In this document: positions 328 to 44,060 of the stretch, in pieces | How positions within the stretch are numbered: the first letter of the stretch is position 1 | Layout of the letters: every line of letters begins with the position of its first letter | NCBI GenBank assembly: GCA_030390025.1 | Contig: JASTWF010000034.1 | Span: forward strand, 6,076,001-6,124,128 | Reading direction: 5' to 3' | DNA length: 48,128 nt | DNA from: Squalus acanthias | Taxonomy: Eukaryota | Program-made: the position numbers and the translations under genes | Notes under the pieces: generated by a model | Told to the model about the DNA's origin: nothing | The model's database searches: none | What the model saw: the letters and a program-made list of their open reading frames with translations, nothing else

Positions 328-1180
328 CAGTACTGAGGGAGTGCTGCATTGTTGGAGGGGCAGTACTGAGGGAGTGCATCTCTGTCAGAGGGGCAGTACT
401 GAGGGAGCACTGCACTGTCAGAGGGGCAGTACTGAGGGAGCGCATCACTGTCAGAGGGTCAGTACTGAGTGAGCGCATCTCTGTCAGAGGGGCAGTACTG
501 AGGGAGCACTGCACTGTCAGAGGGGCAGTACTGAGGGAGCGCATCACTGTCAGAGGGTCAGTACTGAGTGAGCGCATCTCTGTCAGAGGGGCAGTACTGA
601 GGGAGCACTGCACTGTCGGAGGGGCAGTACTGAGGGAGCGCATCACTGTCAGAGGGTCAGTACTGAGGGAGCGCATCACTGTCAGAGGGGCAGTACTGAG
701 GGAGTGCTGCATTGTTGGAGGGGCAGTACTGAGGGAGTGCATCTCTGTCAGAGGGGCAGTACTAAGGGAGCGCCGCACTGTCAGAGGGGCAGTACTGAGG
801 GAGCACATCTCTCTCAGAGGGTCAGTACTGAGGGAGCGCATCACTGTCAGAGGGTCAGTACAGAGGGAGCGCATCACTGTCAGAGGGGCAGTACTGAGGG
901 AGCACTGCACTGTCAGAGGGGCAGTACTGAGGGAGCACTGCACTGTCAGAGGGGCAGTACTGAGGGAGCACTGCACTGTCAGAGGGGCAGTACTGAGGGA
1001 GCACTGCACTGTCAGAGGGGCAGTACTGAGGGATCACTGCACTGTCGGAGGGGCAGTACTGAGTGAGCACTGCACTGTCGGAGGGGCAGTACTGAGGGAG
1101 CACTGCACTGTCAGAGGGGCAGTGCTGAGGGAGCACTGCACTGTCAGAGGGGCAGTACTGAGGTAGCACTGCACTGTCAG
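328..1180 (+). repeat. 33-bp minisatellite (cagtactgagggagcactgcactgtcagagggg), about 26 units, derived from a SINE internal segment
   Basis: Direct tandem periodicity (11-aa repeats in the ORF track); unit matches cagtactgagggagtgctgcactgttggagg inside the SINE at about 3312-3342. Confidence 0.95.
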
Positions 1181-1184
1181 ATAG

Positions 1185-3201: not shown

Positions 3202-3675
3202 GTGTCAGCTGTGGCTCAGTAGGTAGCACACTAACCTCTCAGTCAGAGGTTGTGGGTTGAAGTCCCACTCCAGAGACTAGAGCACCATAAATCTAGGCTG
3301 ACTCTCCAGTGCAGTACTGAGGGAGTGCTGCACTGTTGGAGGTGCCGTCTTTCGGATGAGATATTAACCCGAGGCCCCGTCTGCTCTCTCAGGTGGACGT
3401 AAAAGATCCCGTTGCACTAGTTCGATGAAGAGTGGTGAAGTTATCCCTGGTGTCCTGGACAATAATTATCGCTCAATCAACATAACAAAAACTATTAATC
3501 TGGTCATTTTCACATTGCTGCTTTTGGGAGCTTGCTGTGCGCAAATTGGCTGCGGTGTTTCTCACCTTACAACAGTGACTACACTCCAAATGTATTCATT
3601 GGCTGTAAAACGCTTCGAGACGTCCGGAGGTCGTGAAAGGCGATATATAAATGGAAGTCTTTCTTTCTCTTTTAT
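3202..3675 (+). mobile_element. tRNA-derived SINE with Deu-like central domain (SacSINE1/DeuSINE type)
   Basis: A box (tggctcagtagg), degenerate B box (ggttgaagtccc), Deu-like core (gccgtctttcggatgag...ctctctcaggtggacgtaaaagatccc), L2-like tail (atataaatggaagtctttctttc). Confidence 0.85.
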
Positions 3676-5108: not shown

Positions 5109-5199
5109 ATAGATTGGGGTGAAGTGTTTAGGATATTAGGAATATGTTATGATATACAAAATATGTACTATCCCCTCCTCACTGCTGTCGGCGTTCCTA
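5109..5199 (+). CDS. GPR139/GPR142-like GPCR, coding exon 1 (N-terminus and first half of TM1: (I)DWGEVFRILGICYDIQNMYYPLLTAVGVP)
   Basis: YYPxLxxxGVP followed by N is the TM1 signature of this family; phase-1 donor A|GTAAGG at 5199/5200 matches the phase-1 acceptor at 10240/10241; first in-frame ATG is 5163, with ATA at 5109. Confidence 0.8.
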
Positions 5200-5233: not shown

Positions 5234-5470
5234 ATGGAGAGGCCCAGAGAAAGAGCTAGGGGCTTGAGCGACGAGGCTTTGGTGGCTCTGGTTGGCGCTG
5301 TGGAACGGCGATGGGCAGTGTTGTTCCCTGTGAGGTGCAGGAGGCCATTGCCCCGGGAGTTTAGAAGGGTGTGGAGGGAGGTGGCTCAGCACATCTCCCC
5401 GAGGGGCCTGGTGCCGAGGACCCACACCCAATGTCAGAAGAAGTTCAACGAGCTCACTCGGGTGGTCAGG
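5234..5470 (+). mobile_element. Harbinger/PIF Myb/SANT-like DNA-binding protein, first exon
   Basis: LSDEALVALVGAVERRWAVLFP...WREVAQHI...RTHTQCQKKFNEL trihelix/Myb pattern ending at donor AGG|GTGAGT; convergent with the transposase remnant. Confidence 0.85.
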
Positions 5471-5689
5471 GTGAGTACCTGCTTTTCCAAACCTCTACAT
5501 CCCTCCATCTCAACTTCACTCTGTGCCCAGAGGGTTTACAAACCCAAATGCCCAACACTCATTCAAACCTATGGCCATTTCATAAAACACACATCCACAT
5601 CCCACACCTTGCACACATTAACCGCTATTCAACAAGATACACTACAGCAACTCACCAAGGCTTCTTCGGCAGCACCTCCCAAACCCGCG

Positions 5690-5980
5690 ACCTCTTCCAC
5701 CTAGAAGGACAAGGGCAGGCGCATGGGAACACCACCACCTCCAAGCTCCCCTCCAAGTCACACACCATCCTGACTTAGAAGTATATCGCCGATCCTTCAT
5801 CATCGCTGGGTCAAAATCCTGTAACTCCCTACTTAACAGCAATGTGGGAGTACCTTCACCACACGGACTGCAGCGGTTCAAGAAGGCAGCTCACCACCAC
5901 CTTCTCAAGGGCAACTAGGGATGGGCAATAAATGCTGGCCATGCCAGCGAAGCCCACATCCCATAAACGAATAAAAATAT
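5690..5980 (+). mobile_element. Non-LTR retroelement 3' end (further copies at about 12795-12960 and 34555-34765 on +, partial at 12205-12280 on -)
   Basis: Shared block tatatcgccg..ccttcatcgtcgctgggtcaaaatcc...gactgcagcggttcaagaagg...gcaataaatgctggcc with A-rich end. Confidence 0.75.
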
Positions 5981-5981
5981 A

Positions 5982-7172
5982 CTATGGGAGGCACATCTGC
6001 CAAACACATGGCTGCACATAATAACGGCTATTCAGCTGTGGTAGGCACATCTGCCAAACACATGTCTGCACATAATAACGGCTATTCAACTATGATAGGC
6101 ACCTCTGCCAAACACATGTCTGCACACAGTAATGGCTCTTCAACAATGTAAGGCACCTCTGCCAAACACATGTCTGCACACAGTAATGGCTATTCAACTA
6201 TGGTAGGCACCTCTGCCAAACACAGGTCTGCATAGAGTAATGGATATTCAACTATGATAGGCACATCTGGCAAATGCATGGCTGCACACAGTAATGGCTA
6301 TTCAACTATGATAGGCACCTCTGCCAAACACATGTCTGCACACAGTAATGGCTATTCAACTATGATAGGCCCCTCTGCCAAACACATGTCTGCACACAGT
6401 AATGGCTATTCAACTATGAAAGGCACCTCTGCCAAACACATGTCTGCACACAGTAATGGCTATTCAACTATAATAGGCACATCTGCCAAACAATGGCTGC
6501 ACACAGTAATGGCTATTCAACTATGGGAGGCAAATCTGCCAAACACAAAGATTGCACACAGTAATGGCTATTCAACTATAGTAGGCACATCTGCCAAACA
6601 CATGGTTGCACACAGTAATGGTTATTCAACTATGATAGGCACATCTGACAAACACATGGCTGCACACAGTAATGGCTATTGAACTGTGATAGGCACATCT
6701 GCCAAACACATGGTTGCACACAGTAATGGCTATTCAACTATGATAGGCACATCTGCCAAACACATGTCTGCACACAGTAATGGCTATTCAACTGTGATAG
6801 GCACATCTGCCAAACACATGTCTGCACACAGTAATGGCTATTCAACTGTGGTAGGCACCTCTGCCAAGCACATGTCTGCACACAGTAATGGCTATTCAAC
6901 TATGGTAGGCACCTCTGCCAAACACATGGCTGCACATAGTAATGGCTACTCAACTTAGATAGGCACCTCTGCCAAACACATGGCTGCACACAGTAATGGC
7001 TATTCAACTATGGTAGGCACCTCTGCCAAACACGTGTCTGCAAACAGTAATGGCTATTCAACTATGGTAGGCACCTCTGCCAAACACATGTCTGCACACA
7101 GTAATGGCTATTCAACTATGGTAGGCACCTCTGCCAAACACATGGCTGCACACAGTAATGGCTATTCAACTA
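5982..7172 (+). repeat. 54-bp minisatellite (ggcacctctgccaaacacatgtctgcacacagtaatggctattcaactatgata), about 22 units
   Basis: Direct tandem periodicity; 18-aa repeats in the ORF track. Confidence 0.95.
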
Positions 7173-7422
7173 TTTGTTGACAGTTTTCCCGCTCATCTCC
7201 ATGTTGTGAGAACGAGTTTTGTTAGTTCATGAATTGTTGTGTTTGTTTCAACTTGTTTGTCCTGAATAAATGACACAGAGTTGGTAACACAACTAATTTT
7301 TTTAATTCTAACTTTACATCTTTTCTGATTTGACTCATTGCAGCTTTGTCCAGCAATAGGGGGTGCGGGATGCTTTCAATGATGTGCTTCTTCATCACAG
7401 AAGCCATCTTCTCAATAAGGGG

Positions 7423-8082
7423 TTAGAATCGGTGTCTTATGAGCCGTTCACGGACGGCCCTTTCAGTGGCAACATTGTGCACCTCCCTCCCACGTTGGTG
7501 CTGCTGATTCTCCTCTTCATCCTCCTGCTACTCATCCTCCTCCTCCTCTCCCTCTTGCTCCTCCTCCTCAGGTGGTGCACCAATCCCTGGTGGCAATGGC
7601 TGGGTCCTCATGATTGCAATGTTATAAAGCATGCAGCACACAACAATCAAGAGGGAGACTCGCTCGGGAGAGTATTGCAGGGCTCCTCCTGAGTGATCTA
7701 GAAAGCGGAACCGTTGTTTCAAGACGCCGAACGCCTGCTCTATCATGTTCCTGGTGGCGCTATGGCTCTCATTGTATTGCAGTTCGACAGGGGTGTTGGG
7801 GTTATGGATCGGTGTCATCAGCCAGGTGCAGAGTGGATAACCCTTGTCTCCGAGGAGCCATCCACTAGGTTGACACGGTGGTTGGAAGATGTGTGCAACA
7901 CCGGTCTGGCGCAGAATAAAAGCATTGTGGCTGCTGCCAGGATAGCGGGCATTAACGGCGAGTATGAGCTGTCTGTGGTCACACACCCGCTGGTCGCGTT
8001 TGCCACTCTCTCTCTCTCTGCGCCTCTGCTGCCTCCGAAGGTGAAGCTGGACGATGACGCCCCAAGTTAGTGCAGCCCCCAT
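7423..8082 (-). mobile_element. Harbinger/PIF (HARBI1-like) DDE transposase remnant with internal deletion
   Basis: VCDHRQLILAVNARYPGSSHNAFIL, WLLGDKGYPL, YNESHSATRNMIEQAFGVLKQRFRFLD, IVVCCMLYNIA, acidic tail, frameshifted end RERLIRHRF*; first catalytic Asp region (GxIDGTH) absent. Confidence 0.9.
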
Positions 8083-8568
8083 CGAAGCTTCTTAATATCG
8101 TTAGAAGGAAGGTGAAATAAAAATGAACCTCCAAATTGGTGCTCAGGACCCAAAACTCCTTCGGTGAGCGTCGTATCTCTCCAGACGTCTCTCAACCTGC
8201 ATCTAACAAAAATTTCGCCGACAAGAAACGGCAGGAGGCAACCGCCTTTAAATAGCGCTCCCCCAGCCCCTTCCCGACTTGAAAACATTCCCCATCTACG
8301 TGTCGTTCCTAGCGGCAGGGGCTGAGGCAGGGGACACGACTCAATTTTCAGTCCGGGGTGCTACCAGGGCATTGCACGCTCGACTGATGTCACGATCTGC
8401 AGGCGCAGGAGATCGTGGCGGCAGTGTTTAGTGCCAGCGCAAAACGACTGGTCAATTTTGTGAGCGTACTAAAATAGCCGCGCTCGGGCGCTAAGCTCCT
8501 ATCGCCCCGTTACCCCTCCCCCCCCGAAGGTGCTCAGGGCAGGTGCAAACCAACCGACTTTTCCCCCC
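8083..8568 (-). mobile_element. Probable Harbinger 5' non-coding and terminal region
   Basis: CpG-containing segment upstream of the transposase start with TTTAAA and TGACATCA on the minus strand, ending at ccgacttttcccccc; partner TIR not found. Confidence 0.45.
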
Positions 8569-8789
8569 ATGATTATCTGTGTTTCTCTCTCTGTCGTTCC
8601 CCATCCCATCCGCGCTGCTGTCAGCTATTGATTCTGAAGGTGATTTCGTGTTACCAAGATTCAAATGTTCAACTCAAGTAAATTTATTGGAGGTGACTCT
8701 TTATTTAACGAATTTCAATCTGCTACCGACACTGAACATTTGTATCAGGTCAGAAGAATGCTGTCTTGGTTTAGGAGACTTTTCACCTA

Positions 8790-10240: not shown

Positions 10241-11139
10241 TGAACTTAGTGACGATTGTGATCCTGTCTCGGGGAAAGTGTGGTCTCTCCAAATGTGTCA
10301 CTCGCTACCTGGTGGCCATGGCAGCGGCGGATCTACTGGTCGTTATCCTCGACCTGATATTGAGGCACATTCCGATTGTTTATAGGGAACAGTTTGATTT
10401 CGTGCGGTCCATCCCCGTGTGTAATATCCACGCCGTCCTGCTGTTCGCAGCCACAGACTGTTCTGTCTGGTTCACCGTCACTTTCACCTTTGATCGATTT
10501 GTGGCCATTTGTTGCCAGAAGCTGAAAACTAAACATTGCACCGAGAAAACGGCGGCTGTGGTTCTGGGAACAGTGACTGTGCTGAGCGGTTTAAAGAACA
10601 TCACCTGGTATTTTATGTTCACAGGTCGGTATTGGCTTCAGAACGACCCCTGGTTTTGTGATGTCACAATGGATTTTCAGAATTCACGGGTCTGGGGAAT
10701 AGTCGAGTTCCTTCATTATATTCTCACCCCGTGTGTCCCATTTGTGGTGATTCTGCTGCTCAATGCTGTCACCGTCAGACACATTTTAGTGGCCAGCAGA
10801 GCCCGCAGGAGACTCCGGGGTCCCAGCAGTGGGGAGAGTCCCAGAGACCCAGAGATGGAGAGCCGCAGGAAATCCATCATTTTACTGCTTGTTATCTCCG
10901 GCAATTTCATCCTGTTATGGGCAGTGTTTATGGTGTATTCTATATGGAACCGGATGTGGTATTTGGGGTATTATTCTGTACTTCCACCGTATTATGTTAT
11001 GGAACTGGGATTCATGCTGCAGCTGCTGAGTTGCTGCACAAACACTGGGATTTACGCCGTGACCCAGACTAAGTTCAGAGAGCAGTTGAAGAATGTGGGG
11101 AAATATCCCTTTACTCTGATTGTAAAATTCATTAAATGA
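10241..11139 (+). CDS. GPR139/GPR142-like class A GPCR, coding exon 2 (end of TM1 to TM7 and C-tail), open frame
   Basis: Acceptor ttccttcctcacag; YLVAMAAADLLV (TM2), Cys at TM3 start, FTFDRFVAIC (DRY-like), TM5 PCVPF, TM7 SCCTNTGIYAVTQTKFREQL; no stops. Confidence 0.93.
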
Positions 11140-11196
11140 TGAGAAGAAACTGAGACTTTGCAGCCTGAGAGTTGACAGTTCCCTGGGCCTGATATT

Positions 11197-11900
11197 GTGG
11201 GGCCCCGCACAGAGATGGCGGCTCCGGGGCCCAGCACAAAGATGGCAGCTCTGGGGCTCCGCACAAAGATGGCGGCTCTGGGGCCCTGCAAAAAGATGGC
11301 GGCTCTGCAGCCCAGCACAAAGATGGCGGCTCTGGGACCCCGCCCAAAGATGGCGGCTCTGGAGTTCCGCACAAAGATGGTGGCTCCGGGTCCACGAATG
11401 GAAATGGGAGCACTGGGGACCCGCACAAAGATGGTGGCTCCGGGTCCACGCACAAAAATGGGGGCTCCGGGTCCACGCACAAAAATGGGGGCACTGGGGA
11501 CCCGCACAAAGATGGCAGCTCTGGGGCCCCGCACAAAGATGGTGGCTCCGGGTCCACGCACAAAAATGGGGGCACTGGCGCTCCGCACAAAGATGGCTCC
11601 TCTGGCGCTCAGCAAAAAGATGGTGGCTCTGGAACCCCGCTCAAAGATGGCGGTACCCGCGCCCTGCACAAAGATGGCGTCTCTGGGGACCAGCACAAAA
11701 AGTAGTCTCTGGGGCACAGCACAAAGATGGCAGCACCCGCGTCCTGCACAAATATGGCGGCTCCGGCGCCCGACAGAAAGATGGCGGCACTGGGGTCACG
11801 CACAAAGATCGCGGCTCTGGGGCCGCGCACAAGGATTGCGGCTCAGGAGCCCCGTACAAAGATGGCGGCTCAGGAGCCCCGCACAAGGATTGCGGCAGTC
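11197..11900 (+). repeat. 27-bp CpG-rich tandem repeat (ctggggccccgcacaaagatggcggct), about 26 units, carrying YY1-type motifs
   Basis: 9-aa periodicity in the ORF track; AAGATGGCGGC exact in 6 units by manual count, near-matches in most others. Confidence 0.92.
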
Positions 11901-12065
11901 ACTCGGTGTCTTTCCCTGGCGGCGGGCGGAGAGTGTCTGGATGGCGGGAGCAGTTGGAGTCCCGGTTACTGTGAGAGCGGGCGGCGAGGCGGAGCAGCCT
12001 GGCCCGGCACGGCCCACAGGACCCCGAGCAGGCCAGCCCGGGGAGGAGATGGCCCGGCACCAGGA
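11900..12065. promoter_or_regulatory. GC/CpG-rich unique segment next to the YY1-motif array (promoter-like or first-exon-like)
   Basis: High CpG density and GGGCGG boxes in an otherwise CpG-poor region. Confidence 0.4.
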
Positions 12066-12436
12066 CTTTATTAGTCATTATAACATTTAAAATCATTACA
12101 ACACTTTACAGATCTTTTATAACCCTTTATAAATCATTATGACCATTAATAAAACATTATAACGCTTTTTCAATCATTATGACACTTAATAAATCATTTT
12201 TATAACTGATTCTTGGGATGTGGGCACCGCTGACAAGGCCAGCATTTATTTCCCATCAGCAGGTGGTGGGGAGCCGCCTGAGACAAGTGAATGTCTTGCT
12301 GGGCCATTTCAGAGTCAACCACATTGCAGTGGTCTGGATTTACATTTCAGCCAGACCAGGTAAGGACAGCAGATTTCTCTCCCGATAGGCCATTAGTGAA
12401 CCAGGTGGAACTTTACGACAATCCGGTACGTTCATG

Positions 12437-18950: not shown

Positions 18951-19621
18951 TAAAGATCCCTCTACACTGTCCCATGAAACACTCTCATGGCAGGTTCAGA
19001 CCACGTTTGATACAGAGTAAAGATCCCTCTACACTGTCCCATCAAACACTGCCTGGGCAGGTTCAGAACAGGTTAGATAGAGTAAATCTCCCTCTGAACT
19101 GTCCCAGCAAACCACTCCCAGGGCAGGTTCAGACCACGTTTGATAGAGTAAAGCTCTCTCTACACTGTCCCATTAAACCCATCCAGGACATGCAGAACAC
19201 GAGTAAGACAGATTAAAACTCCCTCGACACTATCCCATCAAACTCTCCCAGAGCAGGTACAGCATGTGTTAGATACAGACTAAAGCTGCCTCTACAGTGT
19301 CCCATCAAACCCTTCCAAGACAGGCACAACACGAGTTAGACACAAAGTAAAGTTACATCAACACAGGCCCATCAAACACTCCCAAAGCAGGTGCAGCATG
19401 GATTAGATACAGATTAAAGACCCGTTTACACTGTCCAATTAAACTCTCCCAGGGCAGGTAAAGCACAGGGTAGATACAGAGTGAACCTCCCTCTACAATG
19501 TAACATCAAACACTCTCAGGGCAGGTACAGCACGGGTTAGATACAGAGAAAAACTCTCTACACTGTCCCATCAAAAAATCCCAGGGCAGGTTCAGACAAT
19601 GTTTGGTCCAGAGTCAAGCTC

Positions 19622-22562: not shown

Positions 22563-23183
22563 AGTAAAGCTTCCTCTAAACTGTCCCATCAAACACTCCC
22601 AGGGCAGGTTCAGACCACGTCTGATACAGAGTAATGCTCCCTCTACACTGTCCCATCAAACTTTCCCAGGGCAGGTATAGCGGGAGTTAGAAACAGAGCA
22701 CAGCTCCCTCTACACTATCCCATCAAACACTTCCAGGACACATTCAGACCATGTGTGATACAGAGTAAAGCTCCCTTTACACTGTCCCATCAAACCCGTC
22801 CAGGACAGGGAGAACAGGAGTTCGAAAGAGTAAAGCTCCCTCTATACTGTCCAATCAAACACTCCCAGGGCAGGTGCAGCACGGATTAGATACAGATTAA
22901 AGCTCCCTCTAATCTGTCCCAATAAACGCTCCAAGGGCAGGTGCAGCACGGATTAGATACAGATGAAAGCTGCCTCTACACTGTTCCATCAAATCACTCC
23001 CAGCACACGTATAATACGGGTTAAATGCAGAATAAAGCTGCCTGTATACTGTCCCATCAAACCCTTCCAGGACAGGCACAACAAGAGTTAGAGACAGAGT
23101 TAAGCTCCCTCTACGGCGTCCCATTAACACTCGCAGGGCAGGTACAGTACATGTTAGATACAGCATAAAGCTCCCTCACTAAA

Positions 23184-24968
23184 AGGAGACACACCGCGGG
23201 CCACACTCAATGGAAGGAGACACCGCGGGACACACTCACTGGAAGTAGGCACACCGCGGGACACACTCACTGGACGGAGACACACCGCGGGACAGAATCA
23301 CTGGAAGGAGAAACACCGCGGGACAGATTCACTGGAAGGAGACACACCGCGGGACACACTCACTGGAAGGAGACACACCGCGGGACACACTCACTGGAAG
23401 GAGACACACCGCGGGACACACTCACTGGAAGGAGACACACCGCGGGACACACTCACTGGAAGGAGACACACCGCGGGACACACTCACTGGAAGGAGACAC
23501 ACCGCGGGACACACTCACTGGAAGGAGAAACCACGGGACACACTCACTGGAAGGAGGCACACCGCGGGACACTCTCACTGGAAGGAGACACACCGCGGGA
23601 CACTCTCACTGGAAGGAGACACACCGCGGGACACACTCACTGGAAGGATACACACCGCGGGACACACTCACTGGAAGGAGACACACCGCGGGACACACTC
23701 ACTGGAAGGAGGCACACCGCGGGACACACTCACTGGAAGGAGGCACACCGCGGGATACACTCACTGGAAGGAGACACACCTCGGGACACACTCACTGGAA
23801 GGAGACACACCTCGGGACACACTCACTGGAATGAGACACACCTCGGGACACACTCACTGGAAGGAGACACACCGCGGGACACTCACTGGAAGGAGACACA
23901 CCGCGGGACACACTCACTGGAAGGAGACACACCGCGGGACAGACTCACTGGAAGGAGACACACCGCGGGACACACTCACTGGAAGGAGACACACCGCGGG
24001 ACACACTCACTGGAAGGAGACACACCGCGGGACACACTCACTGGAAGGAGACACACCGCGGGACACACTCACTAGAAGTAGACACACCGCGGGACACACT
24101 CACTAGAAGGAGACACCCCGCGGGCCACACGCACTGGAAGTAGACACACCGCGGGACACACTCACTGGAAGGAGACACACCTCGGTACACACTCACTGGA
24201 AGGAGACACACCGCGGGACACACTCACTGGAAGGAGACACACCGCGGGACACACTCACTGGAAGGAGACACACCGCGGGACACACTCACTAGAAGTAGAC
24301 ACACCGCGGGACACACTCACTGGAAGGAGACACCCCGCGGGCCACACGCACTGGAAGTAGACACACCGCGGGACACACTCACTGGAAGGAGACACACCGC
24401 GGGACACACTCACTGGAAGGAGACACACCTCGGGACACACTCACTGGAAGGAGACACACCTCGGTACACACTCACTGGAAGGAGACACACCGCGGGACAC
24501 AGTCACTGGAAGGAGACACACCGCGGGACACAGTCACTGGAAGGAGACACACCGCGGGACACACTCACTGGAAGGAGACACACCGCGGGACAGACTCACT
24601 GGAAGGAGACACACCGCGGGACAGACACACTGGAAGGAGACACACCGCGGGACACACTCACTGGAAGGAGACACACCGCAGGACAGACTCACTGGAAGGA
24701 GACACACCGCGGGACAGACTCACTGGAAGGAGACACACCGCGGGACAGACTCACTGGAAGGAGACACACCGCGGGACAGACACACTGGAAGGAGTCACAC
24801 CGCGGGACACACTCACTGGAAGGAGACACACCGCGGGACAGACACACTGGAAGGAGACACACTGCCGGACACACTCACTGGAAGGAGACGCACCGCCGGA
24901 CACACTCACTGGAAGGGCACACCCCGCGGGCCACACTCACTGGAAATAGACACACCGCGGGACACACG
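23184..24968 (+). repeat. 31-bp CpG-containing minisatellite (ggaaggagacacaccgcgggacacactcact), about 57 units
   Basis: Highly homogeneous tandem periodicity. Confidence 0.97.
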
Positions 24969-24969
24969 A

Positions 24970-27900
24970 TGAGAAGAGCGGGGCCCAGGGGCGAGGGAGG
25001 GGCCCGGGGGCGAGGTCGATGCCCAGGAATGGCGCAGCGGGGTCGGGAGGACCACACTGCAGCCTATAAAGCCCAGGCAGAGAGGACCTGCGGGAAGAGG
25101 GAGGAGGACAGTAGGAGTGGGTTTGTGTGTGTGTGCTCGGCCGATGTAGCAGAGCCGGGTCTCCAATCGTCTTGGATCCCCTTGCCATTGGACCAAGACC
25201 TTGCTCTGTCAAGCCTGCGTGGTAGCTGGTGTGCAACGGCCACCCCACGTTAAAAGAATTAACGCACAGGCATCTTCCACCCTTTAAAATGAATCTCGGG
25301 ACCTGGAACATCAGGACACTCATGGACACGCCCAACAGCGACAGACTGGAACGCCATTGTGCTAACGTTGCCCGGGAGCTCAGACGTTTCGACATAGACA
25401 TCACCGCCCTAAGCGAGACCCAGTGGCCAGAGGAAGGCCAGCTCAAGGAGCAAGGCTGTGGTTACACCTTCTTCTGGAAAGGCAAACCTGAAGAAGAACG
25501 CCGCCTCCATGGGGTAGGTGTCGCCATAAAAAATGAGCTAGTTAAACGTCTCAGAGACTCCACTTGTGGAATAAACGAACGCCTCATCACTCATGGCTCA
25601 ACCTAGCCCGGAACCAGTGCGCTACGGTCATCAGTGCATCCGCCACAACACTGGAAGCCACAGACAAGACCAAAGAGGAATTCTACTCCAGCCTCGAACA
25701 ATCCCTGTCCCGAGTCCCAATGGGCGACAAGCTGATCCCCCTTGGCGACTTCAACACCAGAGGTGGAAAGGACACAGACCTCTGTGGAAGTGTGATCGGC
25801 AGAGAGGGGGTAGGGAAAGCCAACTCCAATGGTAGCCTCCTCCTGACGAAATGCTAAGAACATGGCCTTGTCATAACCAACACCTTGTTCCGTCAGAGAG
25901 ACAAGTACAAGGCTTCATGGCAACACCCTCGCTCCAAGCACTGGTATCTGTTGGACTACGTCATCGCCCGAGCGAGGGACCGCAAGGACGTCCGCATCAC
26001 CTGTGCCATGACAGGAGCTGACGACTGCTGGACAGCGCACTGCCTAATCAGCTCTGTCATCTCCATCAACGTAGCCCCAAAACAGCGGCGGCAACAGATG
26101 CAATGCCGCAGGAAAATCAACGCTGGAGCACTCAAAGACCCTGCTAAGAAAGCCCTATTCAGCCTGCGCCTCACAACCAACCTGACGACTCCCAGTGATT
26201 CAGAGACACAGAGTGTCCACGGCGCCTGGTCTGCACTCAAGGCCTCCATAATCAGCACCTGCGAAGAGACGCTCGGTCACTCGACCAGGAAAAATCAAGA
26301 CTGGTTCAACAAGAACGACCAGGAGATCCAGGAGCTAATAAGTCGCAAGGGCAAGGCATTGCTGATCTGGAAACAGTAACAGAACTCGAGAGCCAGAAAG
26401 CAGCTCTACAGACATTGAAGGCCGAGGTCCAACAAAAAACTCGCGACCTAAGAACAGATGGTGGGTGGAGAAAGCGCAGGAGATCCAGCAGCTGGCCGAC
26501 AACCACGACGTGCGTGGATTCTTTAGCGCATTCAAGACCACCTACTGCCCAAGCACCCATGGTCCTACCCCACTGCGGGCTAAGAATGGAGAGGTACTCA
26601 TCAAGGACAGAGAGGCAGACAGTGCCCGCTGGAAGGAGCACTTCGAAGATCTCCTTAACCGAAACTCTGTCTTCGATGCGAGTGTCCTCAACTCCATCCC
26701 GCAGCATGCTACCCGCAACCACCTCAGCACAACCTCAGTCCGGCATGAGGTTGAAAAGGCCATCCGACAACTGAAGAACTACAAGGCCTCAGGAGCAGAT
26801 GGAATCCCCGCCGAGGCGCTAAAACATGGTGAAGAAGTACTATTGGTGCGAATACATGAACTAATTTCTCTTATTTGGAAGGAGGAGAGCATGCCAGGGG
26901 ATCTCAGAGACGCCGTAATCGTGACCATCTTCAAGAAAGGTGACAAGTCTGATTGTGGTAATTACAGAGCAGTCTCCCTGCTGTCTGCCACAGGGAAAGT
27001 CAGCGGAAGAATCCTCCTCAATCGCCTTCTCCCAGTGGCTGAAGAGCTCCACCCAGAGTCGCAATGCAGATTACGCCCACTAAGGGGCACAATGAACATG
27101 ATCTTCACCGCGCGTCAACTACAAGAGAAATGCAGGGAACAGCACCAACCGCTGTACATGGTCTTCTTTGACCTCATAAAGGCCTTCGACACCATCAACC
27201 ATGAGGGATTATGGAGTATCCTCCTCAAATTCAGCTGCCCTCAAAAGTTTGTCACCATCCTCCGCCTGCTTCACGACAACATTCAAGCTGTAATCCTGAC
27301 AAACAGATCCACCAGAGACCCAATTCATGTACGGACCGGGGTCAAGCAAGGCTGTGTCATCGCAACAACGCTCTTCTCGTTCTTCCTGGCTGCAATGCTC
27401 CATCTCACCCTCAGTAAGCTCCCCGCCGGAGTGGAGCTAATCTACAGAACAAATGGGAAACTGTTCAAACTCCATCGCCTCCAGTCCAGATCCAAGGTCG
27501 TTCCATCCTCTGTCATCGAATTACAGTATGCAGACGACGCTTGCATCTGTGCTCACTCAGCAGTCGAACTCTAAACCATCGTCAACATCTTCACCGAAGC
27601 GTACGAGAGCATGGGCCTTACGCTAAACATCCGTAAGACAAAGGTCCTCCACCAACCCGCCACAAGTACTGCTCCCCCATTATCAAAATCCATGACGAGG
27701 CCTTGGACAACGTGGACCACTTTCCATATCTTGGGAGCCTACCGTCAACAAGGGGAGACGTCGATGACAAAGTCCAACACCGCCTTCAGTTTGCCAGTGC
27801 AGCCTTCGGTCGCCTGAGGAAGAGAATGTTTAAAGACCAGGACCTCAAACCCAGCCCCAAGCTCATGGTCTACAGAGCAGTAGTGATACCCAACCTCCTG

Positions 27901-28518
27901 TAGGCTTCAGAGACATGCACCACGTACAGCAGGTACCTCAAAGCACTGGAGAGGTACCACCAATGCTGCCTCCGCAAGATCCTGCAAAACCATTGGCAAG
28001 ATAGGCGCACCAACTTCAGCGTTCTCACTCAGGCCAACATCCCCAGCATCGAAGCTTTGACCACGCTCGATCATCTCCGATGGCCGGGCCACATCGTCCG
28101 CATGCCCGATAAGAGACTTCCAAAATTAGCGCTCTACTCGGAGCTCCGGCACGGCAAGAGAGCCACAGGTGGGCAGAGGAAACGCTTCAAGGACACTCTC
28201 AAAGCCTTCTTGAAAAAGTGCAATATCCCCAGCGATACCTGGGAATCCCCGGCCGAAGACCGCACAAAGTGGAGGAAAAGCATCCGGGAAGGCGCCGAAT
28301 ACTTCGAGTCTCTTCGCCGGGAGCAAGCGGAAGCCAAGCGCAAACAGCGTAAGGAGCGCACGTCAACCCAAGCACCCCACACACCCGCCCCTTCAACCAC
28401 CGTATGCCCCACCTGTAACAGAGACTGTAGGTCCCGCATTGGACTCATCAGTCACCTGAGAACTCATTTTTAGTGTGGAAGCAAGTCATCCTCATTTCCG
28501 AGGGACTGCCTAAGAAGA
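24970..28518 (+). mobile_element. Near full-length RTE-clade LINE (APE endonuclease, RT, C-terminal C2H2 finger), inactivated
   Basis: MNLGTWNIRTL, ALSET, LGDFN, WQHPRSKHWYLLDY, GVKQGCV, YADD, CPTCNRDCRSRIGLISHLRTH, tail gagggactgcctaagaag; several stops and frameshifts. Confidence 0.95.
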
Positions 28519-34164: not shown

Positions 34165-35215
34165 CTTTAATGGGCATATAATTGGCAAATGAAATTTAAC
34201 ACAGATGAATCTGAGGTGTTACATTTTGGTAAGAAATGTAGAGACGTCACATATTACTTGGAAAATAAGAATCTAAATGGGGTAGAGGAGCAAAGGAATC
34301 TCGGAGTACAAATACACAAATCACTGAAAGTAGCGACACAGGTTAATAAGGCCATAAAAAGCAAACCAATCACTCGGGTTTATATCTGGAAAGGTAGAAT
34401 TGAAAAGTAGTGAATTTATGCTAAACTTGTATCGAACCTTGTTTAGACCACACTTGGAAAACTGTGTACAGTTCTGGTCGCTGTATTCTAAAAAGGATAG
34501 AGGCACTGGAGAGGGTGCAGAGAAGATTTACATGGATAATACCAGAAAAGCTAGGGTGACTTAGAAGTATATCGCCGATCCTTCATCGTCGCTGGGTTAA
34601 AATCCTGGAACTCCCTACCTAACAGCACTGTGGGAGTACCATCACCACACGGACTGCAGCGGTTCAAGAAGGCGGCTCACCACCACCTTCTCAAGGGCAA
34701 CTCGGAATGGGCAATAAATGCTGGCCTTGCCAGCGGCGCCCAGATCCCTTAAACGAATAAAACAAAATACATATCAGGAACGGATGAAAACGTTGGGTCT
34801 CCTTTCTCTTGAAGGCTGAGGGGTGACCTGATAAAGCTCTTTAAAATGAGGAAAGGTTTTGATGGAGTGGATACAGAGAGAATGTTTCCACTTGTGGGGA
34901 ACAGCAAAATTAGAGGCCATCAATATAAGGTAGTCACCAAGAAATCAAATAGGGAATTCAGAAGAAACCTCTTTACCCAGAGAGTGGTGAGAATGTGGAA
35001 CTCGCTACCACAGGGAGTGGTTGAAGCGAATAGTATTGATGCATTTAAGGGGCAGTTAGAAAGGCATATGTGGGAGAAGGGAATAGAGGGTTACGCTGAT
35101 AGAATTAGATGAGGTAAGACGTGAGGAGGCTCGAGTGGAGCATAAACGCTGGCCTGGACTGGTTGGGCCGAATGGCCTGGTTCTGTGCTTTATACCCCAT
35201 GTAATCCTCTGTTAC
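34165..35215 (+). mobile_element. CR1 3' fragment split by another retroelement 3' end (34555-34765)
   Basis: MKFNTDESEVLHFG, FTQRVVRMWNSLPQ, ggccgaatggcc hairpin. Confidence 0.88.
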
Positions 35216-35965
35216 AGAGTAAAGCTCTCATCAAATACCTCCAGGGCAGGTACAGTGGGTTAGATAAAAAGTAAAGCTCCCTCTGCACTGTCCCATCAAA
35301 CACTCCCAGGGCAGGTACAGCACGGGTTAGATACAAAGTATAGCTCCCTCTATACTGCCCACCAAACAGGCCCAGCGCAGGTACAGCACGGGTTAGATAC
35401 AAAGTAAAGCTCCCTCTACACTGCCCCACCAAACAGTCCCAGGCCAGGTACACCACGGGTTAGATACAAAGTAAACCTACCTCTACACTGTCCCACCAAA
35501 TACTCCCAGGGCAGGTACACCATCGGTTAGATACAGAGTAAAGCTCCCTCTACACTGTCCCATCAAACACTCCCAGGGCAGGTACAGCACGGGTTAGATA
35601 CAGAGTAAAGCTCCCTCTACACTGTCCCATCAAACACTCCCAGGGCAGGTACAGCACGGGTTAGATACAGAGTAAAGCTCCCTCTACACTGTCCCATCAA
35701 ACACTCCCAGGGCAGGGACAGCACGGATTAGCTACAGAGTAAAGTTCCCTCCAATTTGGTTCATCAACACAACCAACTCTGATATATCATGTGTTCAATG
35801 CAGCGTACAGCTCCCTTGACACTACCCAATGAAGCACAACCAGCTCGGGTACAGCATGGGGTCAATACAGAATAAAGATCCCTCTACATGTAAGTGTCAA
35901 ACACTCCCGGGTGAGGTACGGGCAAGGTTTATCTCCGAGTTAAGCTCCGCTCAACTTGCCACATC
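35212..35965 (+). repeat. 67-bp satellite array, degenerate toward the right
   Basis: Same unit as 16530-23178. Confidence 0.9.
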
Positions 35966-35967
35966 AA

Positions 35968-36590
35968 AGGCCGAGCCTGATGGCAGATGTTGAACAGCTC
36001 CCAGTATCTGGTTAGACTCTCACCTCGGCAGAATCCTGGACTGGTGGAATTCTCAGTAAAGTTCCTCACCTTTCCAATCATTGTTGAAGCTTCCCGTTTT
36101 ATCCCGTCTCCGACACGGGGGTCTCGATCCCACCAGATCTGCTCTGTGAAACCAGAGACATTTCTCCAGTCCCAGTCAGTGAGGCGATGATTCGACTTCT
36201 CTCTCTCCACCTTCCTGAGATATTGCTCACTCCCAGAGACTGTCAATAGAAAAATGATTCATATTAATCCCAGATCCTGTACCTGGAATACAGTGGGGCT
36301 GTTTTTGTGACTGGGATTGTATCTAATTTCATTATATTTGCAATTAATGTGTATTTGAATTACTTACATTAATATTAAATTGTTCCTTTCAGCCCTTTGC
36401 CCTGTTTATTGGGACTAAACTCACTGCCAGTGTCAGCTGTCACTCCAGCTCCTCCCACACTGACATCCCACTGATGGGCCGTAACCAGGGGCGGGGCCCT
36501 GTTTCCAAGTGACATCACACAGGAGCAGGGAGCCAATCAATCAAAGAGCAGCCTGGAAAAATGTTAAAGCGGCCAAGCCCCTCCCAATCC
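35968..36590 (-). other. Copy 2 of the triplicated cassette (candidate exon 36239-36024; promoter motifs about 36485-36545)
   Basis: Acceptor tttttctattgacag, donor GAG|GTGAGA, GC box GGGGCGGGGC, TGACATCA, AGCCAATCA. Confidence 0.7.
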
Positions 36591-39858: not shown

Positions 39859-42428
39859 ATGGAACAGGGTAGAGGGAGCTTTACTCCGTATCTAACCCGT
39901 GCTGTATCTGCCCTGGGAGTGTTTGATGGGTCTTTGTAGAGGGAGCTTTACTCTGTATCTAAACCGTGCTGTATCTGCCCTGGGAGTGTTTGATGGGTAT
40001 TTGTTGAGGGAGCTTTACTCTGTACCTAACCCGTGCTGTACCTGCCTTGGAAAAATTTGAAGGGTCTTTGTACAGGGAGCTTTACTCTGTATCTAACCCG
40101 GGCTGTATCCTCCTGGGAATATTTGAAGGGACAGTGTAGATGAAGCTTTACTTTGCATCAATCCCTGTGCTGTACCTACCCTGGGAGTGATTGATGGGAC
40201 AGTGTAGAGGTTGCTTTACTCTTTATCTAACCCGTGCTGTACCTGCCATGGGGCTGTTTGATGGGACAGGGTAGAGGGAGCTTTAGTCTGTATCTAATCC
40301 GTGCTGTACCTGCCCTGGCAGTTTTTGATTGGACAGTGTAAAGGGAGCTTTACGCTGTACCTAACGCATGCACTACTGGCCCTGCGAGTGTTTGATGGGA
40401 CAGTGAAGAGGGAGCTTTGCTCTGTATCTAATCAGTGCTGTACTTGCCCTGAGAGTGTTTGATGGGACAGTGTAGAGGGAGCTTTATTCGTTATCTAACG
40501 CTGGCTGTACCTGCCTGAGAAAATTGATGGGTCAGTGTAGAGGAAGCTTTACTCTGTATCTTACCTGAGCTGTAGCTGACCTGGGAGTGTTTGATGGGAC
40601 AGTGCAGAGGGAGCTTTACTCTGTATCTAAACCGTGCTGCATCTGCCCTTGGAGTGTTTGATGGGACAGTGTAGAGGGAGCTTTAATCTGTATCTAACCC
40701 CGTGCACTACCTGCCCTGCGAGTGTTTGATGGGACAGTGTAGAGGGAGCTTTACTCTGTATCTAAACCGTGCTGTACCTGCGCTGCGAGTGTTTGATGGG
40801 GCAGTGTAGAGGGAGCTTTACTCTGTACGTAACCCGTGCACTACCTGCCCTGCGAGTGTTTGATGGGGCAGTGCAGAGGGAGCTTTCCTCTGCATCTAAC
40901 CTGTGCTGTACCTGCCCTGGGAGTGTTTGATGCGACAGTGCAGAGGGAACTTTACTCTGCATCTAACCTGTGCTGCACCTGCCCTGGGAGTATTTGATGC
41001 GACAGTGGAGATGGAACTTTACTCTGTAACTAACCCATGCACTAACTGCCCAGCGAGTGTTTGATGGGACAGTGCCGAGGGAGCTTTACTCTGCATCTAA
41101 CCCATGCTGTACCTGCCCTGGGAGTGTGTGACGGGACAGTGTAGAGGGAGCTTTACTCTGCATCATACCCCTGCTTTTCCTGCACTGGGAGTGTTTTGAT
41201 GGGACAGTGCAGAGGGAGCTTTGCTCTGTATCTAACCCGTGCAGTACCTGCCCTGGGAGTGTGTGACGGGACAGTGTAGAGGGAGCTTTACTCTGCATCT
41301 AACCTGTGCTGCACGTGCCCTGGGAGTATTTGATGCGACAGTGGAGATGGAACTTTACTCTGTAACTAACCCATGCACTAACTGCCCAGCGAGTGTTTGA
41401 TGGGACAGTGTAGAGGGAGCTTTATTCTATATCTAACCATTGCAGTACCTGCCCTGGGAGTGTTTGATGGGACAGTGTACAGGAAGCTTTACTCTGCATC
41501 TTACCTGTGCTGTACCGAAACTGGGAGTGTTTGATGGGACAGTGTAGAGGGAGCTCTACTCTGTATCTAACCCGTGCTGTACCTGCCCTGGGAATGTTTG
41601 ATGGGACAGTGTAGAGGGAGATTTACTCTGTATCTAACCCGTGCTGTACCTGCCCTGGGAGAGTTTGATGGGACAGTGCCGAGGGAGCTTTACTCTGCAT
41701 CTAACCCATGCTGTACCTGCCCTGGGAGTGTGTGACGGGACAGTGTAGAGGGAGCTTTACTCTGCATCATACCCCTGCTTTTCCTGCACTGGGAGTGTTT
41801 TGATGGGACAGTGCAGAGGGAGCTTTACTCTGTATCTAACCCGTGCAGTACCTGTCCTGGGAGTGTATGACGGGACAGTGTACAGGGAACTTTACTCTGT
41901 ATCCAACCCGTGCTGTTCCAGACCTGGGAGTGTTTGATGGGACAGTGTAGAGGGAGATTTACTCTGTATCTTACCCATGCTGTACCTACCCTGGGAGTGT
42001 TTGATGGTACAGTGTAGAGGGAGCTTTACTCAGTATCAAATCCGTGCTGTACCTGGCCTGGGAGTGTTTGATGTGATAGTATACAGGGAGCTATAGTCAG
42101 TATCTAACACAGGCTGTACATGCCTGGGAGTGTTTGATGGGACAGTGTAGCGGGAGCTTCACTCTGTACCTAACCCATGCACTAACTGCCCTGCCAGTGT
42201 TTGATGGGACAGTGTAGAGGGAGCTTTACTCTGTATCTAACCCGTGCTGCAACTGGCCTGAGAGTGTTTGATGCAACAGTGTATAGGCAACCTTACTCTG
42301 TATCTTACCTGTGCTGTACATGACCTGGGAGTGTTTGATGGGACAGTGTAGAGGGATCTTTACTAAGAATCTAACAAATGCTGTACCTGCACTGGGACTG
42401 TTTGATGGGACAGTGTAGTGGGAGCCTT
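39856..42428 (-). repeat. 67-bp satellite array in inverted orientation
   Basis: gggagctttactctgtatctaacccgtgctgtacctgccctgggagtgtttgatgggacagtgtaga is the reverse complement of the unit. Confidence 0.95.
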
Positions 42429-42474
42429 ATAACTCTTTATAACGTTAGAATCCTTAATAATCATTTACAAAATG

Positions 42475-42856
42475 TGTAGTGGTGATCTGAGCGAAGTTTT
42501 CAGGATATTAAGGGGAACAGTAGAGTAGATAGCGAGAAACTATTTCCATTGGTGGGGATTCTAGGTCTGGGGCACAGTCTAAGAATTAGAGGCAGTCCTT
42601 TCAGGAGTGAAATTAGGAAACACTTCGACACACAAAGTGGTAGAAATTTGGAACTCTCTTCCACAAACGGCAATTGATGCTAGATAAATTGTTAATTTTA
42701 AATCGGAGATTTATTGCTTTTTGTTAAACAAAGGTATGAAGGGATATGGGCCAAAGGTGGGTTTATGGAGTTAGATCGCAGATCAGTCAATGATCGCAAT
42801 GAATGGGGCAACAGGCTCGAGGGGCTGAATGGCCAACTCCTCTTCCTATGTTCCTC
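42475..42856 (+). mobile_element. CR1 3' end, degenerate
   Basis: VVEIWNSLP-like end, ggctgaatggcc hairpin, cctatgttcc tail. Confidence 0.8.
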
Positions 42857-42944: not shown

Positions 42945-43445
42945 CATGTAGCACAAGTTATACACAGAGTAAAGCTTCCTTTACACTGCCCAATCAAATA
43001 GTCCAAGGGCAGGTATAGCATCGGTTAGATCGAGAGATACAGAGTAAAGCTCCCTTTACACTGTGCAATCAAACAGTCCAAGGGCAGGTATAGCACAGGT
43101 TAGATCGAGAGATACAGAGTAAAGCTCTCTTTACACTGTCCAATCAAACAGTCCAAGGGCACGAACAGCACGGGTTGGATAGAGAGATACAGAATAAACC
43201 TTCCTCTGCACTGCCCAATCAAACACTCGCAGGGCAGGTACAGCGCGGGTGACATGCAAAGCTCCCTCTAATACAGCATGTGCAGCGTACAGCTCCCTTG
43301 ACACTAGCCAATGAAACACAACCAGCTCGGGTACAGCATGGGATGAATACAGAATAAAGATCTCACTACATGCAATTGTCAAACACTCCCGGGTGAGGTA
43401 CGGGCAAGGTTTATCTCCGAGTTAAGCTCCGCTCAACTTGTCACA
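42945..43445 (+). repeat. Degenerate 67-bp satellite units
   Basis: agagtaaagctccc..acactg..caatcaaaca..cagggcaggta motifs. Confidence 0.8.
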
Positions 43446-43449
43446 TCAA

Positions 43450-44060
43450 AGGCCGAGCCTGATGGCAGATGTTGAACAGCTCCCAGTATCTGGTTAGACT
43501 CTCACCTCAGCAAAATCCTGGACTGATGGGATTCTCAGTAAACTTCCTCACCTTTCCAATCATTGTTGAAGCTTCCCGTTTTATCCCGTCTCCGACACGG
43601 GGGTCTCGATCCCACCAGATCTGCTCTGTGAAACCAGAGACATTTCTCTAGTCCCAGTGAGTGTGGCGATGATTCAACTTCTCTCTCTCCACCTTCCTGA
43701 GATATTGCTCACTCCCAGAGACTGTCAATAGAAAAATGATTCATATTAATCCCAAAATACAGGGGGAGCATTTTTGTGATCATAAATATATTCAATTTGA
43801 TTATTTTTGCAATTAATCAGTGTGTTTGAATTACTTACTTTAATATTAAATTGTTATTTTCTGTCCATTGCCCTGTTTATTGGAACTAAACAGACTCCCA
43901 ATGTCAGCTGTCTCTCCAGCTCCTCCCACACTGACATCCCACTGATGGGCCATAACCAGGGGCGGGGCCCTGTCTCCAGGTGACATCATACAGGAGCCAG
44001 GAGCCAATCACACAGCAGCCAGGAGTGATGTCACAAAGCGGCCAGAGCCCCTCCCACTCG
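43450..44060 (-). other. Copy 3 of the triplicated cassette
   Basis: Near-identical to copy 2; carries TGACATCA, CCAAT, TGATGTCA and GC box; upstream GTGAGT donor lost. Confidence 0.7.

What the first reader, a model, noticed from the sequence alone, without database searches (positions are those of the whole stretch)
11197..12065. Tandem array of about 26 YY1-type sites forming a CpG island directly behind the GPCR
Seen: 27-bp units start about 58 bp after the stop codon, each centred on AAGATGGCGGC or a variant (AAGATGGCAG, AAGATGGTGG, AAAATGGGGG), all in one orientation, and run into a unique GC-box-rich segment. Established: AAGATGGCGGC is the YY1 consensus, binding is CpG-methylation sensitive, and unidirectional tandem YY1 arrays mark mammalian control regions such as Peg3, Nespas and Xist. 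Inference: a methylation-switchable promoter, boundary or looping element in a shark-like genome. CG-to-TG/CA variants point to some germline methylation, and candidate AATAAA signals at about 12148 and 12188 could place the array in the receptor 3' UTR.
Basis: partly seen in the sequence, partly recalled or inferred. Interest (0 to 1): 0.72.

Follow-up and report, generated by a model that had tools for sequence, protein, structure and literature searches.

The report
Multicopy YY1-motif minisatellite behind shark receptor
A 27-base repeat carrying about two dozen same-direction binding motifs for the gene regulator YY1 really does sit just behind a shark receptor gene, but it is one copy of a repeat family present at many places in this and related genomes, so it looks more like a spreading promoter-derived repeat than a special switch for this gene.

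Summary
Observation confirmed: 26 head-to-tail 27-bp units at 11198-11896, 58 bp behind the stop of a GPR139-like shark receptor. All YY1-type cores are on +; 6 are perfect AAGATGGCGGC and 12 have one mismatch. Array plus GC segment just meets CpG-island thresholds (65% GC, o/e 0.67).

The locus-specific reading is weakened. The 'unique' GC segment is not unique: contigs of four public runs (three coded organisms, four studies) show about 100 array-unit variants in the deepest run and up to 21 GC-segment variants. Diverged contigs bridge array to GC segment and GC segment to the AT-rich 20-bp repeat. The core is not significantly better conserved than the spacer (p=0.11), and a degenerate unit was itself duplicated. 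Both AATAAA signals lie inside the AT repeat. Minisatellites fill 35% of the window.

Best reading: a dispersed composite repeat (YY1 minisatellite + GC block + AT block) grown from a real YY1 promoter site and spread by duplication. YY1 binding is plausible; an imprinting-type switch is not shown. The scan had not noted this array; it noted a 26-bp array upstream of this receptor family in this genome (e1-7939187, unchecked).

The parts
11198..11896 (+). 27-bp minisatellite, 26 units, consensus TGGGGCCCCGCACAAAGATGGCGGCTC; YY1-type core at unit positions 15-25, all in one orientation; member of a high-copy family
   Evidence: multicopy
11897..12066 (.). Non-tandem GC-rich block (GC 0.72, CpG o/e 0.72 over 11897-12065) with GC-box-like words on + (GGGCGG at 11924 and 11979); multicopy and joined to the array in diverged copies
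   Evidence: tables 3 and 8
12067..12198 (.). AT-rich 20-bp tandem repeat (6.2 copies at 12075-12198, GC 0.21) holding AATAAA at 12148 and 12188 (+) and 12072 (-), and TATA-like words on both strands; joined to the GC block in diverged copies
   Evidence: table 8
12199..12257 (-). Tail end of a very abundant retroposon-like interspersed repeat (other copies in the window at about 5920-5963 and 34707-34748); the label SINE/LINE tail is my inference
   Evidence: tables 2 and 7
10241..11139 (+). Exon 2 of a GPR139-like rhodopsin-family receptor of a family hugely expanded in sharks (7tm_1; 2623 relatives at E<=0.001)
5109..5199 (+). Probable exon 1 coding part of the same receptor; splices in frame to exon 2; the codon where the start is expected reads ATA

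Best explanation
The feature is one copy of a dispersed composite repeat: [27-bp YY1-motif minisatellite]-[GC-rich block]-[AT-rich 20-bp tandem block]. Shown: the anatomy, the unidirectional cores, and that all three parts recur as diverged, mutually linked copies in at least three related organisms. Inferred: the founder unit was a genuine promoter-type YY1 site beside a GC-box-rich segment. It was amplified head-to-tail by slippage or unequal exchange, which fully explains the single orientation and even spacing. The composite was then carried to many loci by segmental duplication, plausibly together with the expanding GPR139-like receptor genes. YY1 can probably load on unmethylated copies, but this copy is mostly a passenger and not a selected switch for this receptor.
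For: Of the 32 listed records, 6 bridge array-to-GC (five with 9-37 differences), 4 bridge GC-to-AT and 4 bridge AT-to-retroposon tail (three with 13-22 differences); 14 of 20 rows hold at least 0.22 of the words (5 coded organisms plus one unnamed row, 5 studies); no significant core-over-spacer conservation; a 47-bp block duplicated at 46/47 identity and two identical degenerate units; 19 arrays cover 35% of the window. Shark small chromosomes are rich in simple tandem repeats (bioRxiv 10.1101/2022.10.17.512540, passages).
Against: The founder match to YY1 is not chance (about 2e-5). The family consensus keeps the perfect site. The half of the unit that holds the ATGG core is the best conserved (GCACAAAGATG 8.4% mismatch vs 23.5% for TGGGGCCCC). 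CpG survives in a 75%-diverged array, while 16 of the other 18 arrays have o/e at most 0.5. These fit function at family level. The AT-to-tail bridges could reflect independent AT repeats beside retroposon tails. No listed contig spans the whole laid stretch.
Confidence: 0.48

Rival explanations
1. Functional Peg3-like promoter unit repeated at many loci: the AT block and GC block form a CpG-island promoter firing on the minus strand, and the YY1 array lies just downstream (first intron or 5' leader) of a non-coding transcript running antisense into the receptor, with activity gated by CpG methylation.
For: On the minus strand the order is AT/TATA-like block, GC block, then GCCGCCATCTT repeats. 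This is the layout described for Peg3: promoter and first exon, then a tandem-repeat intron with GGCGCCATCTT sites (PMC4196374, passages). The minus strand has 0 ATG over 11198-12075 against 25 on +. TATAAAA lies on minus at 12121. Run X7 (RNA only by guess) has near-identical contigs covering 11826-11960 (0 differences, bridging array and GC block) and 11931-12058.
Against: Contigs show no strand, start or level, and X7 may be DNA. CpG-island predictions overlap poorly with unmethylated DNA in cold-blooded vertebrates (PMC3583005, section 6). CpG transitions are enriched about twofold. Only a weak donor-like word lies at 11903. The absence of minus-strand ATG is partly just the repeated unit.
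Confidence: 0.2
2. Relic or non-autonomous mobile element: either a LINE-type 5' UTR (tandem YY1 monomers plus a GC-rich tether, as in mouse L1 Tf) whose coding body is gone, or a MITE/Helentron-like element with internal tandem repeats.
For: Monomers-then-tether order and YY1-driven monomers are described for mouse L1 Tf (PMC11602158, passages). High copy number with parts diverging stepwise. In this window a CpG-rich 31-bp array also sits directly 5' of a LINE with endonuclease and RT hits.
Against: No RT, endonuclease or transposase frame follows on + (next RVT_1 hit at 19541). No inverted repeat joins the candidate ends. Diverged copies share the junction with the downstream retroposon tail, which points to duplication of flanks.
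Confidence: 0.17
3. 3' UTR VNTR of the receptor mRNA, ending at AATAAA 12148 or 12188; the YY1 look is incidental or acts at RNA level.
For: It starts 58 bp behind the stop; two AATAAA on +. In X7 the array:distal-GC depth ratio is 6.5 against 54-221 in the three DNA runs, near the roughly 6 expected when 26 units pile on the 4 laid units of a molecule holding both parts (weak: RNA is a guess and depth is no copy number).
Against: The AATAAA words are by-products of an AT-rich tandem unit. The same ratio fits a minus-strand transcript. The receptor may have lost its normal start codon.
Confidence: 0.1
4. Locus-specific, allele-specific methylation switch (imprinting-control-like element) for this receptor.
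For: A unidirectional tandem YY1 cluster in CpG-rich DNA; YY1 binding is reduced by CpG methylation (PMC11602158, passages).
Against: Multicopy. Spacers are conserved along with cores, unlike the Peg3 cluster, where sites persist without sequence conservation (PMC2665242, passages). Parent-of-origin imprinting is not established in sharks (own knowledge).
Confidence: 0.05

Closest known systems
Clustered YY1 sites of the mammalian Peg3-DMR first intron (PMC4196374 and PMC2665242, passages seen; Xist/Nespas/Tsix as mentioned in PMC11602158, passages)
   Same: YY1 motif embedded in a tandem repeat, many sites in one small CpG-rich region beside a GC-rich non-repeat block.
   Different: Here 26 units in 0.7 kb against about 10 sites in 2.5 kb; multicopy in the genome; spacer conserved with the core; 3' of a gene; no binding, methylation or allelic data.
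Mouse LINE-1 Tf 5' UTR monomer arrays (PMC11602158, passages)
   Same: Dispersed, multicopy tandem monomers each with a YY1 site, followed by a non-monomeric segment.
   Different: Units are 27 bp and far more numerous (Tf averages 3-3.5 monomers); no ORF1/ORF2 follows; no element ends found.
Dispersed minisatellite families of shark genomes (e.g. the 67-bp and 32-bp arrays repeated in this window; tandem-repeat-rich small chromosomes, bioRxiv 10.1101/2022.10.17.512540, passages)
   Same: Short-period arrays of 0.5-2.5 kb recurring at many loci.
   Different: This one keeps CpG, carries a consensus transcription-factor site and travels with two other blocks.

Membership tests
Peg3/Xist-type clustered-YY1 control region | Three or more YY1 motifs in 500 bp, as part of a tandem repeat | tested here: met
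   21 of 25 full-length units pass the ECMFinder rule (rule from PMC2665242)
Peg3/Xist-type clustered-YY1 control region | Lies in a CpG-rich region next to a promoter or first exon | tested here: inconclusive
   GC 0.65, o/e 0.67; no transcription start shown; contigs cannot show one
Peg3/Xist-type clustered-YY1 control region | Locus-specific element; sites persist while surrounding sequence diverges | tested here: not met
   Many diverged linked copies; core vs spacer p=0.11
Peg3/Xist-type clustered-YY1 control region | Allele-specific methylation and in vivo YY1 binding | not testable with these tools
   No methylation or ChIP data available
LINE 5' UTR with YY1 monomers (mouse L1 Tf type) | Tandem monomers with a YY1 motif followed by a non-monomeric tether | tested here: met
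   Array then GC block on +; formal resemblance only
LINE 5' UTR with YY1 monomers (mouse L1 Tf type) | ORF1/ORF2 downstream on the same strand | tested here: not met
   No Pfam hit in stop-to-stop frames of 75 aa or more between the GPCR and 19541
MITE/Helentron-like element with internal tandem repeats | Terminal or subterminal inverted repeats, target-site duplication, unrelated flanks between copies | tested here: inconclusive
Dispersed minisatellite family | Head-to-tail 10-100-bp units with internal duplications | tested here: met
Dispersed minisatellite family | Same unit at many loci or in large amount in the genome | tested here: met
   tables 1-3 and 7; the number of loci itself was not measured

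The most novel reading that the evidence does not exclude
Many members of the shark GPR139-like receptor expansion (or another gene set) each carry a 3' YY1-array/CpG-island cassette that acts as a methylation-gated antisense promoter or YY1 looping hub. That would be a family-wide cis element for choosing or silencing receptors among hundreds of paralogs, and a non-mammalian, multicopy counterpart of the Peg3 YY1 intron.
Probability: 0.1. Interest if true: 0.72.

Novelty: new member of a known kind. Interest (0 to 1): 0.3.

Why it matters
If the best reading holds, this is an apparently undescribed but ordinary kind of repeat. Its one notable trait is that it places very many consensus YY1 sites across shark genomes, which matters for repeat annotation and for reading YY1 or methylation data. 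If the novel case held, it would give a testable handle on how hundreds of orphan receptor paralogs are regulated and would show tandem YY1 control arrays outside mammals.

Tried and rejected
No whole genome is held, so loci could not be counted and the flanks of other copies could not be read.

No RNA holder is listed as on record; X7, X9, X11, X13, X17 and X19 are RNA by guess only. X7 has no cover at 12098-12185 while the DNA runs do; this is one study and a guessed RNA run, so it is not used as evidence. One X7 contig (record 29, 381 letters) fits only 11921-12084 with 22 differences; whether its unlike part is a spliced exon cannot be told. Only 11790-12420 was laid, so the left end of the array and its link to receptor 3' ends in other copies are untested.

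Protein-coding reading: the 291-aa ORF 11215-12090 (9-aa repeats, frame shift near 11700) has no Pfam hit and no relative at E<=0.01 among 8000 candidates of 160-510 aa. It gave 57 phmmer hits, of which I read 15: 14 look like unrelated repeat proteins and one (P0146) has a similar unit. None of the 120 listed receptor relatives (of 2623) carries more than one match to my array-peptide patterns. Rejected as a gene.

Structured RNA: z=0.36 for 11880-12210; no Rfam or tRNA match in the window. CTCF reading: rejected by eye against a recalled consensus.

Viral contigs: tandem pattern 0 hits; single 16-mer 17 loci, not read and taken as chance-level. Metagenomes: 2 loci with an unrelated spacer.

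Literature: none of nine searches listed a paper that by title or abstract start describes this shark repeat; one search returned 0. The library lacks most subscription papers, and no repeat database (Repbase/Dfam) could be searched, so the family may already be in a repeat library. No supplements were read. Earlier-finding look-ups by sequence and place found no look-alike.

Full report
Observation. Tandem Repeats Finder gives an array at 11198-11896 with period 27, 25.9 copies and 75% matches. I resolved 26 units, one a base short at 11684. It starts 58 bp behind the stop codon (11137-11139) of a 7tm_1 receptor. AAGATGGCGGC with up to one mismatch occurs 19 times in the window (0.39 expected); 18 are in the array, all on +, and 6 are perfect. 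By the published ECMFinder rule for YY1 (PMC2665242, passages), 21 of 25 full-length units pass. The 26 sites descend from one founder, so the fair statistic is the chance that one 27-bp unit holds the 11-mer: about 2e-5. The founder was therefore very probably a real YY1-type site (inference). Array plus GC block has GC 0.65 and CpG o/e 0.67, but receptor exon 2 has o/e 0.66 as well, against 0.42 for the window.

Context. The receptor belongs to the shark-expanded family that NCBI/UniRef call 'probable G-protein coupled receptor 139' (2623 relatives; the 120 listed are all from sharks, 74-84% identical but for one at 56%). It has two exons: about 5109-5199 and 10241-11139, which splice in frame. 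Its intron holds Harbinger-type transposon remnants (Myb/SANT and DDE_Tnp_4 hits; the name Harbinger is recalled). I scanned 104 of the 109 stop-to-stop frames of 75 aa or more outside arrays, leaving out five alternative frames overlapping the receptor. They show only this receptor and transposon proteins. Nineteen tandem arrays cover 35% of the window, so an array beside a gene is ordinary here; shark small chromosomes are known to be rich in simple tandem repeats (bioRxiv 10.1101/2022.10.17.512540, passages). Behind the array come a 170-bp GC block, an AT-rich 20-bp repeat (12075-12198) that contains both AATAAA words, and the tail of an abundant interspersed repeat.

Is the core selected? 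Mismatch to the consensus is 11.5% in the 11 core columns and 17.5% in the 16 spacer columns (column permutation p=0.11). The best-conserved 11-column block is GCACAAAGATG (8.4%), which overlaps the core but reaches into the spacer; the CGGC end of the core is as variable as the spacer (17.3%). Units are related by recent duplication: a 47-bp block recurs at 46/47 identity, and two degenerate AAAATGGGG units are identical. So weak sites were amplified, not purged. Against a purely neutral reading, CpG o/e is 0.65 here, while 16 of the other 18 arrays are at or below 0.5; the two exceptions are a young 31-bp array and the AT repeat with one CpG. CpG-island predictions match unmethylated DNA poorly in cold-blooded vertebrates (PMC3583005, abstract and section 6), so the island label says little about methylation.

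Is it unique? No genome was available, so I used public runs. Of 20 listed rows, 14 hold at least 0.22 of the sampled words of 11140-12210; they come from five coded organisms plus one unnamed row, in five studies. I laid four runs (X3, X7, X4, X12; three organisms, four studies) on 11790-12420, which holds only the last four array units. In the GC block 5-21 contigs of X3 share other letters. Summed depth over array bins in X3 is of the same order as over the abundant interspersed repeat next door and tens to hundreds of times above the GC block; the tool warns that this is no copy number, so I use it only as a sign of abundance. Of 32 listed records, 6 bridge array and GC block (five with 9-37 differences), 4 bridge GC block and AT repeat, and 4 bridge AT repeat and retroposon tail (three with 13-22 differences). 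One X4 contig is 98% identical over 11961-12327 and looks like the same locus. No listed record spans the whole stretch. The composite is therefore a multicopy family shared by related organisms, with array units in excess over GC blocks.

Transcription. No holder is on record as RNA. Run X7, RNA by guess, has near-identical contigs over 11826-11960 and 11931-12058, and its array:GC depth ratio (6.5) differs from the DNA runs (54-221). This fits a transcript holding both parts on either strand, but contigs give no strand or start, so it is a weak hint only. The + strand ORF is not a gene by any test I ran.

Mechanism. Best supported (0.48): a promoter-derived YY1 site was amplified by slippage and then spread with its neighbours by segmental duplication, probably with the receptor expansion. 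Anatomy and multicopy linkage are shown; origin, mode of spread and passenger status are inferred. Rivals: a Peg3-like minus-strand promoter with a downstream YY1 array, antisense to the receptor (0.20); a mobile-element relic such as an L1-Tf-like 5' UTR or a non-autonomous element (0.17); a receptor 3' UTR VNTR (0.10); an allele-specific switch (0.05). The first two can coexist.

Comparison and novelty. It would work like the Peg3 or L1-Tf YY1 clusters if it binds YY1, but it fails membership in both: it is not locus-specific, and no LINE ORFs follow. It meets the definition of a dispersed minisatellite family. My nine literature searches listed no paper on this repeat, but repeat libraries could not be searched. 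Verdict: real, new member of a known kind, interest 0.30. The boldest reading not excluded is a family-wide YY1/CpG cassette regulating receptor paralogs (probability 0.10, interest 0.72).

Noticed in passing
window 5109-5199: Receptor exon 1 reads ATA-GAT-TGG (I-D-W) where several relatives start M-D-W, with an in-frame stop upstream; the first ATG is at 5163, just before TM1. The gene may have lost its normal start codon.
   Followed up: partly
window 11137-11700: The receptor reading frame is the same as the array's K-M-A-A peptide frame, separated by three TGA stops; probably coincidence.
   Followed up: no
P0146 and its cluster P0178-P0187: Unnamed predicted proteins from public assemblies begin with a 9-aa repeat K-M-A-A-L-G-P-Q-H, 7 of 9 residues like this array's peptide, implying a similar 27-bp YY1-type repeat in an unidentified organism; no named relative found.
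   Followed up: partly
L001 2000-2165; L002 70-200: Metagenome contigs with 3 and 2 tandem 27-bp units sharing CACAAAGATGGCGGC but an unrelated AT-rich spacer, followed by an inverted repeat built from the same motif; independent origin likely, period partly forced by my pattern.
   Followed up: partly
window 23175-28470: A young CpG-rich 31-bp array (58 copies, 93% matches, o/e 0.68) runs into a GC-rich segment directly 5' of a LINE with endonuclease and RT hits: a second array-plus-GC-block arrangement.
   Followed up: no
window 35799-36589 and 43281-44059: Two paralogous 0.8-kb non-TE-looking cassettes (89% identical) ending in GC-box and CCAAT-like words, each behind a 67-bp-type array; possible duplicated promoter or first exon on the minus strand.
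   Followed up: partly
window 5234-8570: Harbinger-like transposon remnant (Myb/SANT on +, DDE_Tnp_4 on -) inside the receptor intron, itself holding a 54-bp array at 5981-7173.
   Followed up: no
window 42427-42480: An AT-rich TTATAAC-type stretch like the 12075-12198 repeat sits at the end of the long 67-bp array.
   Followed up: no
window 328-1181 and 3370-3400: The 33-bp array unit resembles a piece of an interspersed repeat seen at about 3370-3400, suggesting that local arrays grow out of mobile-element fragments (by eye).
   Followed up: no
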